Below are positions 55,247 through 62,013 of a stretch of 64,000 nucleotides of DNA, in pieces; positions within the stretch are counted from its first letter, which is position 1, and each line of letters opens with the position of its first letter. A program made the position numbers and the translations under genes. This stretch comes from Escherichia coli. GTDB taxonomy: Bacteria; Pseudomonadota; Gammaproteobacteria; Enterobacterales; Enterobacteriaceae. The notes below the pieces were generated by a model. The model searched no databases. It was given only the letters and a program-made list of their open reading frames with translations, and was not told the DNA's origin. Location: NCBI RefSeq assembly GCF_003018255.1, contig NZ_CP027440.1. The stretch is one strand, 5' to 3'.

Positions 55247-55323
<77 letters not shown>

Positions 55324-55356
55324 ATTAAAATTTGATGAAGTAAAGCAGTACGGTGA

Positions 55357-55433
<77 letters not shown>

Positions 55434-55466
55434 ATCAAAATTTGATGAAATAAAGCAGTACGGTGA

Positions 55467-55543
<77 letters not shown>

Positions 55544-58291: not shown

Positions 58292-59629
58292 ATGAAAATT
58301 TGTCGACCACTGTGGGCTGAGGGGACATTCCTGTCTTCTCAGCAGTTTCAGCAGCAGGCCCGCTGGGAAGCGTTCAGCAATGACAGCATTGCGCAGCTTT
58401 GTATTCGCCATCCGTGGGGGATCTCAAACGTGCTCTTTGACCGGGATGCCCTGACGCTCGGAAAGCTGAAAACGCAGGCAGTACGCCTGCGTTTTGCTGA
58501 TGGTACGCTGATCGATTCAGACGTGGCGGATATTCTGCCGCCTGCCTGTGACCTGCGCACGCTGGAGGGCGGCAGCGCGATTGTTTTGCTGGCGCTGCCG
58601 CTTGCGCATGGTAACGGCGGTAATCTCGGTCAGGGCGAGCAGGCTGAAAGGCCGCTGCGCTATCGTCAGGAATGGCAAAAGGTGCAGGATATCTACGGCA
58701 GTGACAGTGAAGATATGGCCGTTGAGCGCCATGCACTGTCCCTGCGCTTTGCCCATGATAACAATCAGGATTACATCACCTGTCCGCTGGCGCGTCTGGT
58801 GCGGGATGTTCAGGGCAACTGGACGCAGGATGAGAGCTATATTCCGCCGTTACTGACGTTAAACGCCCATGACGGGCTGGTACAGCGCCTGGACACGCTG
58901 CTGTTGCAGCTACGGGCGAAGTGCCAGCGCCTGATGGCGATGCGCCGGGAAAGCAACCAGCGCATGGCGGACTTCGCCGTCGCCGATGTCTCTCTGTTCT
59001 GGCTGCTTAACGCCCTGAATTCCGCCGAGCCGGTGCTGAGCGATTTCCTGCGCTACCCGGCTGTCCACCCCGAACTGGTCTGGCGGGAGCTGGCGAGGCT
59101 TGCCGGTGCGCTGCTGACGTTTTCCCTTGAGCATAACGTCAGCGCCGTTCCGCCCTATGTCCACGAATCGCCGTCCACCGTCTTTCCGCCACTGTTCTCC
59201 CTGCTCAGCGAGCTGCTGGAAGCCAGCCTGCCGTCGCGGGTGATCGCGCTGGATCTGGCGTCCCTGCCGGGCAACCGCTGGAAAGCCGACCTGCACGATC
59301 CGCGCCTGCAGGAAGAAGCCGATTTTTACCTGTCCGTTCGTTCCTCACTGCCTGCGCATCAGGTACTGCACCAGCTACCGCTGGTCTGCAAAATCGGTGC
59401 GCCTGATGACGTCACGCTGCTTATCAACGTGGCGCTGAACGGTGTTCCACTGGTGCCACTCACCTCGGTTCCGGCGGCGCTGCCGCTGCGGCTGGAGAGC
59501 CAGTATTTTGCGCTGGATATGCACAGTGACGCGGCTAAATCGATGCTGGAGTCCGGGTGCTGCATGATTTATGCGCCGGGAACAATGGGCGACCTGAAAC
59601 CTGAACTGTTTGCGGTGCTGCGCTCATGA
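58292..59629 (+). CDS. tssK: Type VI secretion baseplate protein TssK
   Basis: 445 aa, MKICRPLWAEGTFLSSQQFQQQARWEAF, the TssK N-terminal signature. Confidence 0.88.
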   Translation: MKICRPLWAEGTFLSSQQFQQQARWEAFSNDSIAQLCIRHPWGISNVLFDRDALTLGKLKTQAVRLRFADGTLIDSDVADILPPACDLRTLEGGSAIVLLALPLAHGNGGNLGQGEQAERPLRYRQEWQKVQDIYGSDSEDMAVERHALSLRFAHDNNQDYITCPLARLVRDVQGNWTQDESYIPPLLTLNAHDGLVQRLDTLLLQLRAKCQRLMAMRRESNQRMADFAVADVSLFWLLNALNSAEPVLSDFLRYPAVHPELVWRELARLAGALLTFSLEHNVSAVPPYVHESPSTVFPPLFSLLSELLEASLPSRVIALDLASLPGNRWKADLHDPRLQEEADFYLSVRSSLPAHQVLHQLPLVCKIGAPDDVTLLINVALNGVPLVPLTSVPAALPLRLESQYFALDMHSDAAKSMLESGCCMIYAPGTMGDLKPELFAVLRS

Positions 59630-60291
59630 AAAAAGAGACGGATATCAATATCGACGTGCTGCTGCGCGACACGTTTCTGACGGTGGTGGAACTGCGTCAG
59701 GGAACCACCGTGCGTCACGGTATCGAGCTGTATCGCCACTGTCAGCGGCAGGTGGAACTGGTCCGCGAACGTCTGAAAGATGCCGGATTCAGTCGGGAGA
59801 ACGTGGAGCACATAACTTACGCGCAGTGCGCCCTGCTGGACGAAACGGTGCTCAGCCGTAGTGGCATGGACGACGGTCAGGCCATCTGGATGAAAAACCC
59901 ACTCCAGTCGCATTTCTTCAACACTCTGCAGGCAGGCGAGCTGCTGTACGAACGGATGAAGCAGGTGTTGCAGGAGCCCGCCCCCGCGCAGGCAGTGCTG
60001 ACCTGCTTTCACCGTGTCCTGCTGCTGGGATTTCGCGGGCGTTATCAGGATCCGGTGGCCCCGGAGCGTGACCAGCTTATTTCGACGCTCAACGGGCTGG
60101 TCGCGCCATTTGGCGTGCTGCCGGAAACGGCGGTACTGAACGTGCCGTTATCCCCCCGTCAGCATCCTTTGCTGCATTCGCCGTTTTTCTGGCTGGTAAC
60201 GCTGACGCTGCTACTGGCCGGTGTCTGGTGGGGACTGCACCACTGGCTGAACGTGCTGGTGGATGAATTGCTGCCGCAAAGCCTGCGGTAA
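59626..60291 (+). CDS. tssL: Type VI secretion membrane protein TssL (DotU family)
   Basis: 221 aa; ATGA overlap with the tssK stop; single C-terminal TM segment LHSPFFWLVTLTLLLAGVWWGL. Confidence 0.85.
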   Translation: MKKETDINIDVLLRDTFLTVVELRQGTTVRHGIELYRHCQRQVELVRERLKDAGFSRENVEHITYAQCALLDETVLSRSGMDDGQAIWMKNPLQSHFFNTLQAGELLYERMKQVLQEPAPAQAVLTCFHRVLLLGFRGRYQDPVAPERDQLISTLNGLVAPFGVLPETAVLNVPLSPRQHPLLHSPFFWLVTLTLLLAGVWWGLHHWLNVLVDELLPQSLR

Positions 60292-60303
60292 AGGGAGCCG
60301 TGA

Positions 60304-61956
60304 GTGAGGAACACGCTGAAACAGGCCATCGTGCTGTGGGGAATGGTGTTACTGCTGGTGCTGTGGTGGGTGTTTGTCAGTCCGTCTGGCGTACTGAGAT
60401 GGGCCGGTGCAGCAGTTATCGTTCTGGCGGTTGCCGCATTGTTGATTTACCGGCGCAGGCAGACGTGGACGGAGATGACCGGCGATGCCGGGTTGTTATC
60501 GCTGCCGCCGGAAACGTACCGACAACCGGTAGTGCTGGTCTGTGGCGATATGTCAGCGCATCTGTTCACTGACAGCCCGGTCCGGCAGGTTTCAGAAGGG
60601 CTGTATCTGCATGTTCCCGATGAAGAACAGCTTGTGGCGCAGGTGGAGCGATTACTGACCCTTCGCCCGGCGTGGGCATCGCAGCTTGCCGTGGCGTATA
60701 CCGTCATGCCCGGCATGTACCGGGATACGGCGGTTCTGACCGGACAACTGCGACGGTTCGCTCACAGTATGGCGATAGTGCGTCGCCGGGCGGGCGTAAA
60801 CGTACCCTGGCTTCTCTGGAGCGGGCTGTCCGGCTCGCCGTTGCCGGAGAGAGCGAATTCACCGTGGTTTATCTGTACCGGCGGCGAAGTTCAGGTAGCA
60901 ACATCCGCAGAGACCACCATGCCCGCGCAGTGGATTGCACAATCCGGCGCACAGGAACGCAGTCAGCGACTCTCTTATCTGCTGAAAGCCGAAAGCCTGA
61001 TGCAATGGCTGGATCTGAATGTGCTGGCGGAACTGAACGGCCCGGAGGCGAAATGTCCACCACTGGCGATGGCCGTGGGGCTGGTCCCCTCGTTGCCTGC
61101 GGTGGATAACAACCTATGGCAGTTGTGGATCACCGCCAGAACCGGCCTGACGCCGGATATCGCGGACACCGGCACAGACGATGCGCTGCCATTCCCGGAT
61201 GCCCTGTTACGGCGGTTGCCGCGTCAGTCGGGCTTTACCCCGCTGCGACGGGCCTGCGTGACCATGCTGGGCGTCACCACCGTGGCGGGTATCGCCGCGC
61301 TGTGCCTGTCAGCCACGGCAAATCGCCAGTTATTACGGCAGGTCGGTGACGATCTGCACCGGTTTTATGCCGTCCCGGTGGAGGAATTTATCACCAAAGC
61401 CCGTCACCTGTCGGTGCTGAAAGACGATGCGACCATGCTCGATGGGTATTACCGGGAAGGAGAACCACTGCGCCTCGGTCTGGGGTTATACCCCGGCGAA
61501 CGCATCCGCCAGCCGGTATTACGCACCATTCGCGACTGGCGTCCGCCTGAACAAAAAATGGAGGTGACGGCTTCGCTTCAGGTTCAGACCGTGCGTCTTG
61601 ACAGTATGTCGCTGTTTGACGTCGGACAGGCCCGCCTGAAAGACGGCTCGACAAAAGTGCTGGTGGACGCACTGGTGAACATCCGGGCAAAACCGGGCTG
61701 GCTGATCCTCGTGGCCGGATATACCGACGCCACCGGCGACGAAAAAAGCAATCAGCAGTTATCGCTGCGACGTGCCGAAGCGGTGCGTAACTGGATGCTG
61801 CAGACCAGCGACATCCCGGCCACCTGTTTTGCCGTACAGGGACTGGGTGAGAGCCAGCCTGCGGCGACCAACGATACGCCACTGGGCAGGGCAGTCAACC
61901 GGCGCGTCGAAATCAGTCTTGTTCCGCGTTCTGACGCCTGTCAGGACGTGAAATAA
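60304..61956 (+). CDS. TagL-like T6SS accessory membrane protein with C-terminal OmpA-type peptidoglycan-binding domain
   Basis: 550 aa; N-terminal TM helices (AIVLWGMVLLLVLWWVFV, AGAAVIVLAVAALLIY); C-terminal OmpA-like motifs GYTDATGDEKSNQQLSLRRAEAV and NRRVEISLV; coordinates taken from the ORF track. Confidence 0.75.
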   Translation: MRNTLKQAIVLWGMVLLLVLWWVFVSPSGVLRWAGAAVIVLAVAALLIYRRRQTWTEMTGDAGLLSLPPETYRQPVVLVCGDMSAHLFTDSPVRQVSEGLYLHVPDEEQLVAQVERLLTLRPAWASQLAVAYTVMPGMYRDTAVLTGQLRRFAHSMAIVRRRAGVNVPWLLWSGLSGSPLPERANSPWFICTGGEVQVATSAETTMPAQWIAQSGAQERSQRLSYLLKAESLMQWLDLNVLAELNGPEAKCPPLAMAVGLVPSLPAVDNNLWQLWITARTGLTPDIADTGTDDALPFPDALLRRLPRQSGFTPLRRACVTMLGVTTVAGIAALCLSATANRQLLRQVGDDLHRFYAVPVEEFITKARHLSVLKDDATMLDGYYREGEPLRLGLGLYPGERIRQPVLRTIRDWRPPEQKMEVTASLQVQTVRLDSMSLFDVGQARLKDGSTKVLVDALVNIRAKPGWLILVAGYTDATGDEKSNQQLSLRRAEAVRNWMLQTSDIPATCFAVQGLGESQPAATNDTPLGRAVNRRVEISLVPRSDACQDVK

Positions 61957-62013
61957 AACATACCGCCGGAAGAAGGCGGTGCTTCAATCACACTAACAAG
62001 GAGAGTAATTCTC

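What the first reader, a model, noticed from the sequence alone, without database searches (positions are those of the whole stretch)
60304..61956. TagL-like OmpA-domain protein immediately after tssL
A 550-aa protein with N-terminal transmembrane helices and a C-terminal OmpA-family peptidoglycan-binding motif sits 12 nt after the tssL stop. This tssL-tagL arrangement anchors the membrane complex to the cell wall in some T6SS subtypes. The long periplasmic region between the TM segment and the OmpA domain has no motif I recognise.
Basis: partly seen in the sequence, partly recalled or inferred. Interest (0 to 1): 0.4.

Follow-up and report, generated by a model that had tools for sequence, protein, structure and literature searches.

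The report
TagL cell-wall anchor of E. coli T6SS
This gene encodes TagL, an already characterised inner-membrane protein that ties a bacterial type VI secretion machine to the cell wall; the new detail is that its unexplained middle part is cytoplasmic and looks like a remote, nucleotide-motif-less copy of the front end of the core subunit TssM.

Summary
The ORF is real: window 60304-61956 (+), GTG start, 550 aa, 12 nt after the tssL stop. It is the E. coli T6SS-1 accessory protein TagL. It is 100% identical in DNA to strain JNE23-011 and 95% identical in protein to the CFT073 orthologue at the same mltA/tRNA-Met site. It aligns colinearly over its full length with the studied EAEC Sci-1 TagL/SciZ (36% identity, E 2e-88). 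The C-terminal OmpA-type peptidoglycan-binding domain (aa ~431-545) matches the solved TagL domains (7BBA, 5M38), and all six peptidoglycan/DAP-site residues are conserved.

A third transmembrane helix lies at aa 317-335, so the "long periplasmic region" is mostly a cytoplasmic domain (aa ~52-316). Only a ~95-aa helical linker is periplasmic, as published for EAEC TagL.

Two further results:
- The cytoplasmic domain models confidently (pLDDT 90.7) as a GTPase-like alpha/beta fold without a P-loop.
- The stretch from that domain through TM3 and the linker is remotely homologous to the N-terminal module of TssM (hhalign Prob 97.6, E 3e-12; reversed control E ~0.1).

Verdict: a known kind of component, of low interest, with a modest evolutionary footnote.

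The parts
59626..60291 (+). tssL, short form (221 aa, DotU domain, C-terminal TM anchor, no peptidoglycan-binding domain). It is the partner that recruits TagL in EAEC.
   Evidence: PF09850 E 8e-40. NF038239 T6SS_TssL_short scores 278 bits against a cutoff of 180. It is 38% identical to EAEC TssL.
60292..60297 (+). Shine-Dalgarno-like AGGGAG, 6 nt before the GTG start, inside the 12-nt tssL-tagL gap
   Evidence: Read directly from the sequence.
60304..61956 (+). tagL coding sequence (550 aa plus stop)
   Evidence: RefSeq CDS WP_001561967.1 has identical coordinates in L001. It aligns with EAEC TagL at 36% identity, E 2e-88, and with CFT073 TagL at 95% identity.
60325..60447 (+). N-terminal transmembrane hairpin: TM1 (aa 8-26) and TM2 (aa 30-48), joined by a very short periplasmic turn
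   Evidence: Kyte-Doolittle peaks of 2.48 and 2.42. The family-average hydropathy shows the same peaks, and the loop averages 0.19 K+R. AF2 places helices at 3-24 and 29-58.
60457..61251 (+). Cytoplasmic domain (aa 52-316): a GTPase-like alpha/beta fold without a P-loop (pseudo-NTPase). It is the least conserved part of the protein.
61252..61308 (+). It carries the chain from the cytoplasm to the periplasm.
   Evidence: Kyte-Doolittle 2.09. The family-average peak falls at 317-335. AF2 places a helix at 313-356. It aligns to TM3 of EAEC TagL.
61315..61593 (+). Periplasmic helical linker (aa 338-430) containing the conserved S-x-x-N-N/R...G-x-P-L-R-L-G-L-G-L-Y motif. It is homologous to the segment of TssM that follows its TM3.
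   Evidence: AF2 helices continue to 356 and occupy 362-385 and 399-411. N340, Y396, G386, P388 and G394 are invariant or nearly invariant. hhalign of the linker alone against TssM gives Prob 92.9, E 3.7e-7, against a reversed control of E 0.36.
61594..61938 (+). OmpA/Pal/MotB-type peptidoglycan-binding domain (aa 431-545)
   Evidence: PF00691 E 5e-17. PDB matches are 7RJJ (E 7e-50), 5M38 (E 3e-46) and 7BBA (E 1e-43). Foldseek gives TM-target 0.86-0.91.
61726..61776 (+). Peptidoglycan/DAP-binding motif: D475, N483, L486, S487, R490, A491 (EAEC D486, N494, L497, S498, R501, A502)
   Evidence: Alignment to EAEC TagL. All six residues are invariant in 62 family members. Their roles are taken from PMC8253398.
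62014..62505 (+). hcp, the next gene in the operon (163 aa)
   Evidence: PF05638 E 5e-37. The order tssL-tagL-hcp matches EAEC Sci-1.

Best explanation
The gene encodes TagL, the peptidoglycan-anchoring accessory subunit of the E. coli T6SS-1 (CFT073/Sci-1-type) membrane complex.

Predicted anatomy: the N-terminus is cytoplasmic. A tight TM1-TM2 hairpin is followed by a ~265-aa cytoplasmic pseudo-GTPase-like domain. TM3 then leads to a ~95-aa periplasmic helical linker and a C-terminal OmpA-type domain.

Mechanism, inferred from the studied EAEC orthologue: TagL is recruited to the TssJ-TssL-TssM complex by contact with short-form TssL, which has no cell-wall-binding domain of its own. Its OmpA-type domain binds the meso-diaminopimelate of the peptidoglycan stem peptide non-covalently through D475, N483, L486 and R490. 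This fixes the trans-envelope complex to the cell wall so that the contractile tail can assemble and fire.

Evolution, my inference: everything from the cytoplasmic domain through TM3 to the linker derives from the N-terminal module of a Walker-A-less TssM. On this view TagL is a truncated TssM paralogue in which an OmpA domain replaced the periplasmic TssJ-binding part.
For: Shown here:
- ORF, start codon and spacing.
- Full-length colinear homology to EAEC TagL, E 2e-88, and 95% identity to CFT073 TagL at the same mltA/3x tRNA-Met site.
- OmpA domain by Pfam, with sequence and fold matches to the TagL crystal structures 7BBA and 5M38.
- The six peptidoglycan-site residues are invariant in 62 family members.
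- Three conserved TM segments and a positive-inside charge pattern.
- The upstream TssL is the short form.
- A DotU-family (tssL) gene lies immediately upstream of the tagL homologue in 6 of 6 distant relatives at 25-41% identity.
- The cluster is syntenic with Sci-1.

From the literature:
- EAEC TagL topology, TssL interaction, peptidoglycan binding and requirement for secretion (PMC8253398 and PMC3426401).
- The CFT073 T6SS is listed as TagL-dependent (PMC6612558).

For the TssM relationship:
- hhalign of the TagL family against 24 TssM N-termini gives Prob 97.6, E 3.3e-12 over 304 columns, with reversed controls at E 0.06-0.1.
- The linker alone gives E 3.7e-7.
- The domain has a GTPase-like fold. 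The TssM cytoplasmic domain has itself been modelled on NTPases (PMC6517824).
- Walker A is absent in 24 of 24 sampled TssMs (20 database hits that matched the TssM profile, three E. coli TssMs including EAEC Sci-2, and one from L006) and in 61 of 62 TagLs.
Against: - Nothing was tested experimentally on this orthologue, and it shares only 36% identity with the EAEC protein on which the mechanism rests.
- The topology is predicted, not measured.
- Some E. coli carry a frameshifted allele that lacks the peptidoglycan-binding motif, so the anchor is dispensable or lost in some lineages.
- From memory, and not readable here: Santin et al. 2019 (J Bacteriol) reported that the peptidoglycan-binding domain is the only functional domain of EAEC TagL. 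That argues against any essential role for the cytoplasmic domain.
Confidence: 0.93

Rival explanations
1. The ORF is a fragment, pseudogene or recent partial duplicate of tssM that happens to carry an OmpA domain.
For: Profile-level homology links TagL aa 72-405 to TssM aa 106-432, with the same arrangement of a hairpin plus a third TM helix.
Against: - The same cluster encodes a complete 1108-aa TssM with the IcmF-related, IcmF_helical and IcmF_C domains.
- Pairwise BLASTP between TagL and TssM is not significant (E 0.07).
- TagL forms its own conserved family of 530-620-aa proteins, all with the OmpA domain.
- dN/dS is below 1 in every region.
- The EAEC orthologue is a functional protein.
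Confidence: 0.02
2. It is a generic OmpA-family envelope protein (YiaD, Pal or MotB-like) that lies next to the T6SS genes by chance and has no role in secretion.
For: RefSeq names it only 'OmpA family protein'. The best NCBIfam match is YiaD, but well below its cutoff (94 bits against 175).
Against: - No NCBIfam equivalog reaches its cutoff.
- The N-terminal 425 aa define a narrow family. phmmer found only 213 representative sequences among 1.84 billion, including fragments and a few chimeric ORFs. All 62 full-length members that were aligned carry the OmpA domain.
- In 6 of 6 distant loci checked the gene follows a DotU-family (tssL) gene.
- It is homologous to the experimentally T6SS-dedicated EAEC TagL.
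Confidence: 0.02
3. TagL is more than a passive anchor. Its cytoplasmic GTPase-like domain would be a working regulatory or docking module, for example binding TssL, TssK or TssG as the TssM cytoplasmic domain does, or sensing a ligand to gate assembly.
For: - The domain is conserved in every full-length family member and models at high confidence.
- dN/dS of 0.38 indicates some purifying selection.
- Conserved motifs include PVVLVCGD, NLWQxW and LPFPD.
- It is homologous to the TssM cytoplasmic module that contacts the baseplate.
Against: - It has no P-loop or other recognisable G motifs.
- It is the least conserved part of the protein: mean top-residue frequency 0.36 against 0.67 for the peptidoglycan-binding domain.
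- Most differences between the window and CFT073 alleles fall in this domain.
- Many T6SSs use an evolved TssL that carries only an OmpA domain.
- From memory: Santin et al. 2019 found the peptidoglycan-binding domain to be the only functional TagL domain.
Confidence: 0.12

Closest known systems
EAEC Sci-1 TagL (SciZ, EC042_4528; PDB 7BBA and 5M38 for the peptidoglycan-binding domain)
   Same: It has the same architecture: TM hairpin, cytoplasmic domain, TM3, periplasmic linker and OmpA-type domain. The alignment is colinear over 546 aa (E 2e-88). All peptidoglycan-binding residues are identical. The operon position is the same (tssB-C-K-L-tagL-hcp-tssH).
   Different: Overall identity is only 36%, against 62-64% within the peptidoglycan-binding domain. 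The protein is 26 aa shorter. It lies on a different genomic island (mltA/tRNA-Met rather than the pheU-side island of strain 042). The effector cargo downstream differs.
UPEC CFT073 T6SS-1 'OmpA family protein' (WP_001246526.1), cited in the literature as a TagL-dependent T6SS
   Same: It is 95% identical over all 550 aa, with the same chromosomal site and gene order.
   Different: There are 26 substitutions, nearly all in the first 250 aa (TM hairpin and cytoplasmic domain). In CFT073 the cluster's tssF is annotated as frameshifted.
TssM/IcmF N-terminal module, and TagP, described as a TssM derivative with a peptidoglycan-binding domain
   Same: Both have a TM hairpin, an NTPase-like cytoplasmic domain, TM3 and a first periplasmic helical segment. 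Profile homology is E 3e-12. As TagP is described (PMC5363822), the TssM periplasmic portion is replaced by PF00691.
   Different: TagL has none of the TssM Pfam domains (PF06761, PF21070, PF06744, PF14331) and no pairwise similarity to TssM. I could not fetch a TagP sequence, so whether TagL and TagP form one lineage is untested.
Evolved (long-form) TssL, for example P. aeruginosa TssL1 (PDB 4B62) and Agrobacterium ImpK
   Same: It provides the same function: an OmpA-type domain in the periplasm tethered to the TssL part of the membrane complex. The OmpA domains are homologous.
   Different: There the peptidoglycan-binding domain is fused to TssL itself. Here TssL is the short form and the domain sits on a separate three-TM protein. 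TIGR03350 scores 76.6 bits against a cutoff of 139.8.
TRAFAC-class small GTPases (SR-beta, Rag, Arf, the EF-Tu G domain)
   Different: Identity is 6-15%. There is no GxxxxGK[ST] P-loop, and I saw no NKxD or DxxG motif in the family consensus. The domain also carries an extra C-terminal helical and beta extension.

Membership tests
TagL (T6SS-associated peptidoglycan-binding inner-membrane protein) | C-terminal OmpA/Pal/MotB-type peptidoglycan-binding domain (PF00691) | tested here: met
   PF00691 matches aa 437-533, E 5e-17, 62.4 bits against a cutoff of 27.2. The fold matches 7BBA and 5M38 with TM 0.88-0.91.
TagL (T6SS-associated peptidoglycan-binding inner-membrane protein) | Conserved peptidoglycan/DAP-site residues that are required in EAEC TagL (D486, N494, L497, S498, R501, A502) | tested here: met
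   The equivalents D475, N483, L486, S487, R490 and A491 are all present and invariant across 62 family members.
TagL (T6SS-associated peptidoglycan-binding inner-membrane protein) | Polytopic topology: two N-terminal TM helices, a cytoplasmic domain, a third TM helix, and a periplasmic C-terminus | tested here: met
   This is a prediction only. There are three hydrophobic segments in this protein and in the family average, with a positive-inside charge pattern and matching AF2 helices. It agrees with the published EAEC topology.
TagL (T6SS-associated peptidoglycan-binding inner-membrane protein) | Full-length sequence homology to the founding member, EAEC SciZ/TagL | tested here: met
   BLASTP gives 36% identity over aa 14-547, E 2e-88, colinear.
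TagL (T6SS-associated peptidoglycan-binding inner-membrane protein) | Encoded in a T6SS cluster next to a tssL that lacks its own peptidoglycan-binding domain | tested here: met
   The gene starts 12 nt after a short-form tssL. The cluster is syntenic with Sci-1. The gene follows a DotU-family (tssL) gene in 6 of 6 distant loci.
TagL (T6SS-associated peptidoglycan-binding inner-membrane protein) | Physical interaction with TssL, peptidoglycan binding in vivo, and requirement for T6SS activity | not testable with these tools
   These are known only for the EAEC orthologue (PMC8253398 and PMC3426401).
Evolved/long-form TssL (DotU plus OmpA fusion) | A DotU domain on the same polypeptide as the OmpA domain, with TIGR03350 above its cutoff | tested here: not met
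   The protein has no DotU match. TIGR03350 scores 76.6 bits against a cutoff of 139.8, and PRK07033 scores 55 against 520.
TssM/IcmF core subunit | The periplasmic IcmF-related, IcmF_helical and IcmF_C (TssJ-binding) domains | tested here: not met
   None of the three is detected even at E up to 10, although the cluster's true TssM has all of them.
TssM/IcmF core subunit | N-terminal module: TM hairpin, NTPase-like cytoplasmic domain, TM3 and the following helical segment | tested here: met
   This holds at profile level only. hhalign gives Prob 97.6, E 3.3e-12 over 304 columns, with reversed controls at E 0.06-0.1. Pairwise BLASTP is not significant. The hairpin itself is not part of the alignment.
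TagP (TssM derivative carrying a peptidoglycan-binding domain) | Sequence relationship to bona fide TagP proteins such as P. putida TagP1 | not tested
Only the published description was read.
P-loop GTPases (TRAFAC class) | G1 Walker A / P-loop motif GxxxxGK[ST] after strand beta-1 | tested here: not met
   The sequence after beta-1 is PVVLVCGDMSAHLF. The motif is absent from this protein and from 61 of 62 family members. The fold similarity alone is met.

The most novel reading that the evidence does not exclude
TagL would be a 'mini-TssM'. It would have arisen by duplication of the N-terminal module of a Walker-A-less TssM (TM hairpin, pseudo-GTPase domain, TM3, first periplasmic helices), with an OmpA domain replacing the TssJ-binding periplasmic part. 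It would occupy a TssM-like position beside TssL in the membrane complex. Its pseudo-GTPase domain would keep a docking or regulatory contact with TssL or the baseplate rather than being an inert spacer. TagL and TagP would then be two grades of one evolutionary route to cell-wall anchoring.
Probability: 0.3. Interest if true: 0.4.

Novelty: already known. Interest (0 to 1): 0.2.

Why it matters
The finding itself is routine annotation. RefSeq's 'OmpA family protein' label can be sharpened to TagL, and the compartment of the central region can be corrected. About a quarter of complete E. coli genomes (1287 of 5426) carry this locus.

The added value is modest. TagL's ~265-aa central domain has no Pfam family, and none of the papers I could read assigns it a function. 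The fold and profile evidence here suggests it is a degenerate NTPase module inherited from TssM. If that holds, it explains why TagL has the same three-TM layout as TssM. It also gives a concrete hypothesis for how TagL fits into the still unresolved cytoplasmic and membrane base of the TssJLM complex, and it links TagL and TagP.

Tried and rejected
1. Pfam, NCBIfam and PDB sequence searches of the central domain found nothing significant.
2. Foldseek against afdb50, which would have shown TssM models directly, was unavailable.
Only 9 true TagL loci came back (L011-L019), and none included a TssM N-terminus.
4. The search for homologous proteins list for TagL was saturated with E. coli alleles above 85% identity and was useless for diversity. 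The representative search provided the diversity instead.
5. The key TagL papers (Aschtgen 2010 Mol Microbiol, Aschtgen 2010 Virulence, Santin 2019 J Bacteriol) are not in the library. I therefore cannot say whether a TagL-TssM relationship has already been published.
6. I rejected the TssM-fragment, generic OmpA lipoprotein and evolved-TssL readings (see the rival explanations and the membership test).
7. The hairpin after tagL is not a terminator on the coding strand, because it has no T-tail there.
Full report
**1. Observation**

The ORF listing and the raw sequence show an ORF at window 60304-61956 (+) with a GTG start, encoding 550 aa. The upstream ORF (59626-60291) ends 12 nt earlier, and the gap holds an AGGGAG Shine-Dalgarno-like site at 60292-60297. 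RefSeq annotates the same coordinates in a genome whose DNA is 100% identical (E. coli JNE23-011, locus L001).

The upstream protein is short-form TssL: PF09850 E 8e-40, and NF038239 at 278 bits against a cutoff of 180. The ORF's C-terminus holds an OmpA-family domain: PF00691, aa 437-533, E 5e-17, 62 bits against a cutoff of 27. The position, size, spacing, N-terminal TM helices and OmpA motif are therefore all confirmed.

**2.

Hydropathy shows three TM-grade segments, not only the N-terminal ones: aa 8-26, 30-48 and 317-335. The same three peaks appear in the column-averaged hydropathy of a 62-member family alignment. The charge distribution follows the positive-inside rule. Mean K+R is 1.6 in the N-tail, 0.19 in the TM1-TM2 turn and 3.2 just after TM2. 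AlphaFold2 on that alignment (mean pLDDT 88.4) places long helices at 3-24, 29-58 and 313-356.

The ~265 residues between TM2 and TM3 are therefore predicted to be cytoplasmic, and only aa ~338-430 form a periplasmic linker. This is the topology determined experimentally for EAEC TagL: two TM segments, a cytoplasmic domain, a third TM segment, then a periplasmic domain with the peptidoglycan-binding domain at its end (PMC8253398).

**3. Identity**

The window is E. coli chromosome. The gene sits in a T6SS cluster immediately after mltA and three tRNA-Met genes (window 55247-55543). The gene order is tssB-tssC-tssK-tssL-[this gene]-hcp-tssH-vgrG...tssM-tssA...tssF-G-J-E. This is the order of the EAEC 042 Sci-1 cluster.

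- Against EAEC TagL (SciZ, EC042_4528, 576 aa) the protein aligns colinearly from aa 14 to 547, with 36% identity and E 2e-88. The two TssL proteins are 38% identical.
- CFT073 has the same cluster at the same site, and its protein is 95% identical. The CFT073 T6SS is named in the literature as TagL-dependent (PMC6612558).
- The locus is common. 1287 of 5426 complete E. coli genomes hold at least 80% of the tssL-tagL-hcp stretch.

**4. The peptidoglycan-binding domain**

Sequence search of the PDB gives 7RJJ (Klebsiella, E 7e-50) and the EAEC TagL domains 5M38 (E 3e-46) and 7BBA (E 1e-43). The AF2 model superposes on these with target-normalised TM-scores of 0.86-0.91.

The residues that form the DAP site or are required for cell-wall binding in EAEC TagL are D486, N494, L497, S498, R501 and A502 (PMC8253398). 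They correspond here to D475, N483, L486, S487, R490 and A491. All six are present and invariant in all 62 aligned family members.

**5. Family and context**

A phmmer scan of 1.84 billion representative proteins, using aa 1-426 (everything except the OmpA domain), found only 213 hits at E <= 1e-3. The full-length members are 530-620 aa long. All 62 full-length members that I aligned carry PF00691, and none has a Pfam family over the N-terminal ~420 aa.

In six distant relatives (25-41% identity) the gene is always immediately downstream of a DotU/tssL gene. Named hosts in the species-representative genome scan are Photorhabdus, Pseudomonas, Enterobacter, Acerihabitans and Burkholderia.

**6. 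The central domain**

An AF2 model of aa 52-316 alone is confident (pLDDT 90.7, pTM 0.88) and shows an alpha/beta domain.

- Foldseek's only significant PDB hit is the SR-beta GTPase (E 2.7e-4). Weaker hits mix GTPases with other three-layer alpha/beta folds.
- The P-loop is missing. After strand beta-1 the sequence reads PVVLVCGDMSAHLF, and GxxxxGK[ST] is absent in 61 of 62 family members.

I therefore call the domain GTPase-like in fold and a pseudo-NTPase in sequence. The fold class is moderately supported. It is not a family assignment.

**7. Relationship to TssM**

TssM has the same layout: a TM hairpin, a cytoplasmic domain modelled on NTPases, then a third TM helix (PMC6517824). I compared profiles of the TagL family and of TssM N-termini.

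| TagL region compared | TssM alignment | Prob | E-value | Reversed-TssM control (E) |
|---|---|---|---|---|
| Full length | 4 sequences | 93.9 | 1.6e-7 | 0.098 |
| N-terminal part (aa 1-430) | 24 sequences | 97.6 | 3.3e-12 | 0.056 |
| TM3 plus linker | 24 sequences | 96.5 | 7e-10 | 0.081 |
| Periplasmic linker alone (no TM) | 24 sequences | 92.9 | 3.7e-7 | 0.36 |
| Cytoplasmic domain alone | 24 sequences | 38.8 | 3.2e-4 | 0.038 |

- The 24-sequence alignment was built from the four TssM N-termini plus diverse hits. The 3.3e-12 match covers 304 columns, pairing TagL aa 72-405 with TssM aa 106-432.
- The cytoplasmic domain on its own is not independently convincing, but it aligns in the same register as the full-length match.
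- The shared pattern is visible by eye: [YW]R-x-[KP]-V-[RV]-L-[LV]-[LV]-V-x-G-[DE] at strand beta-1, and S-x-x-x-N-[NR]-x-L ... G-x-P-[LW]-[RY]-x-x-x-G-L after TM3.
- None of the 24 TssM sequences has a Walker A motif.
- Pairwise BLASTP between TagL and the cluster's TssM is not significant (E 0.07). A complete 1108-aa TssM with all three IcmF Pfam domains is encoded further down the cluster. TagL is therefore not a TssM fragment. It is best read as an old, diverged paralogue of the TssM N-terminal module fused to an OmpA domain.
- This resembles the published description of TagP as a TssM derivative carrying a peptidoglycan-binding domain (PMC5363822 and PMC10433429). I found no readable paper that says the same of TagL, but the three most relevant papers are not in the library. 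I cannot claim the relationship is unreported.

**8. How it most likely works**

The domain architecture, the conserved peptidoglycan site and the synteny are shown here. The following steps are inferred from EAEC work.

- TagL inserts in the inner membrane and is recruited by TssL.
- Its periplasmic domain binds the DAP residue of the peptidoglycan stem peptide.
- This anchors the TssJLM complex to the cell wall, which the machine needs in order to function.
- The anchor supplies in trans what evolved TssL proteins carry in cis.

The role of the cytoplasmic pseudo-GTPase domain is open.

- It is the least conserved part. Mean top-residue frequency is 0.36, against 0.67 for the peptidoglycan-binding domain.
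- It collects most of the 26 differences from CFT073.
- Its dN/dS is 0.38, against 0.04 for the peptidoglycan-binding domain. This comes from a single pair of sequences with small counts.
- From memory, Santin et al. 2019 found the peptidoglycan-binding domain to be the only functional domain and the N-terminal TM region to contact the TssL TM helix.

I therefore favour a largely vestigial or structural spacer role (about 0.7) over an active docking or regulatory role (about 0.12-0.3).

**9. Verdict**

The feature is an orthologue of a characterised accessory protein, so its novelty is 'already known' and its interest is low (0.2). The pseudo-GTPase and TssM-module reading of the central region is a reasonably supported and inexpensive-to-test footnote.

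Noticed in passing
window 61962-61980 and 62513-62534: A GC-rich hairpin (CCGCCGGAAGAAGGCGG) sits in the 57-nt gap between the tagL stop and the hcp start. It has no T-tail on the coding strand and scores as terminator-like only on the minus strand. A strong terminator-like site (9-bp stem followed by TTTTTGTTGT) lies directly after hcp. This could give differential expression of hcp relative to the downstream genes.
   Followed up: partly
protein P0109 (E. coli, 34 contigs), compared with window 60304-61956: Some E. coli carry a tagL allele with a frameshift after aa 482. It replaces the last 68 aa and removes the whole peptidoglycan-binding motif. In the same allele the first ~60 aa (the TM hairpin) are far more divergent than the rest, which is ~97% identical, so the allele looks like a recombination mosaic.
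   Followed up: partly
L005:5300-7662 and L005:8028-13662: An orphan tssL-tagL pair lies directly after a chaperone-usher fimbrial operon. It is followed by a second T6SS cluster whose own TssL is the evolved DotU+OmpA form, so one locus carries two cell-wall anchoring solutions.
   Followed up: no
L010:6465-11656: In this distant relative, tssL-tagL is preceded by two GlcNAc-transferase-like genes (PF11397) inside the T6SS cluster. The cluster's TssM carries PF14331, which the E. coli TssMs do not.
   Followed up: no
L001:30731-32080, L003:32248-33597, L002:25486-26835, and proteins P0278-P0330: All 24 TssM N-termini sampled lack a Walker A motif at the position where other TssMs have GxxxxGK[ST]. 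The set comprises the JNE23-011, EAEC Sci-1 and Sci-2 TssMs, one from L006, and 20 database hits that matched the TssM profile.
   Followed up: partly
proteins P0241, P0254, P0266 (hits): Some database ORFs join a VipB, DotU or TssK N-terminal part to a TagL cytoplasmic-domain segment. They are probably internal deletions in T6SS clusters or assembly or gene-calling artefacts.
   Followed up: partly
window 55247-55543 and 59626-59629: Three tandem tRNA-Met genes lie just upstream of the T6SS island, a classic island insertion site next to mltA. The tssK and tssL ORFs overlap by 4 nt, which suggests translational coupling along the operon.
   Followed up: partly
L091:29164-30922 (E. coli CFT073): In CFT073 the tssF gene of the orthologous cluster is annotated as frameshifted, so this reference strain's T6SS-1 may be inactive.
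   Followed up: no
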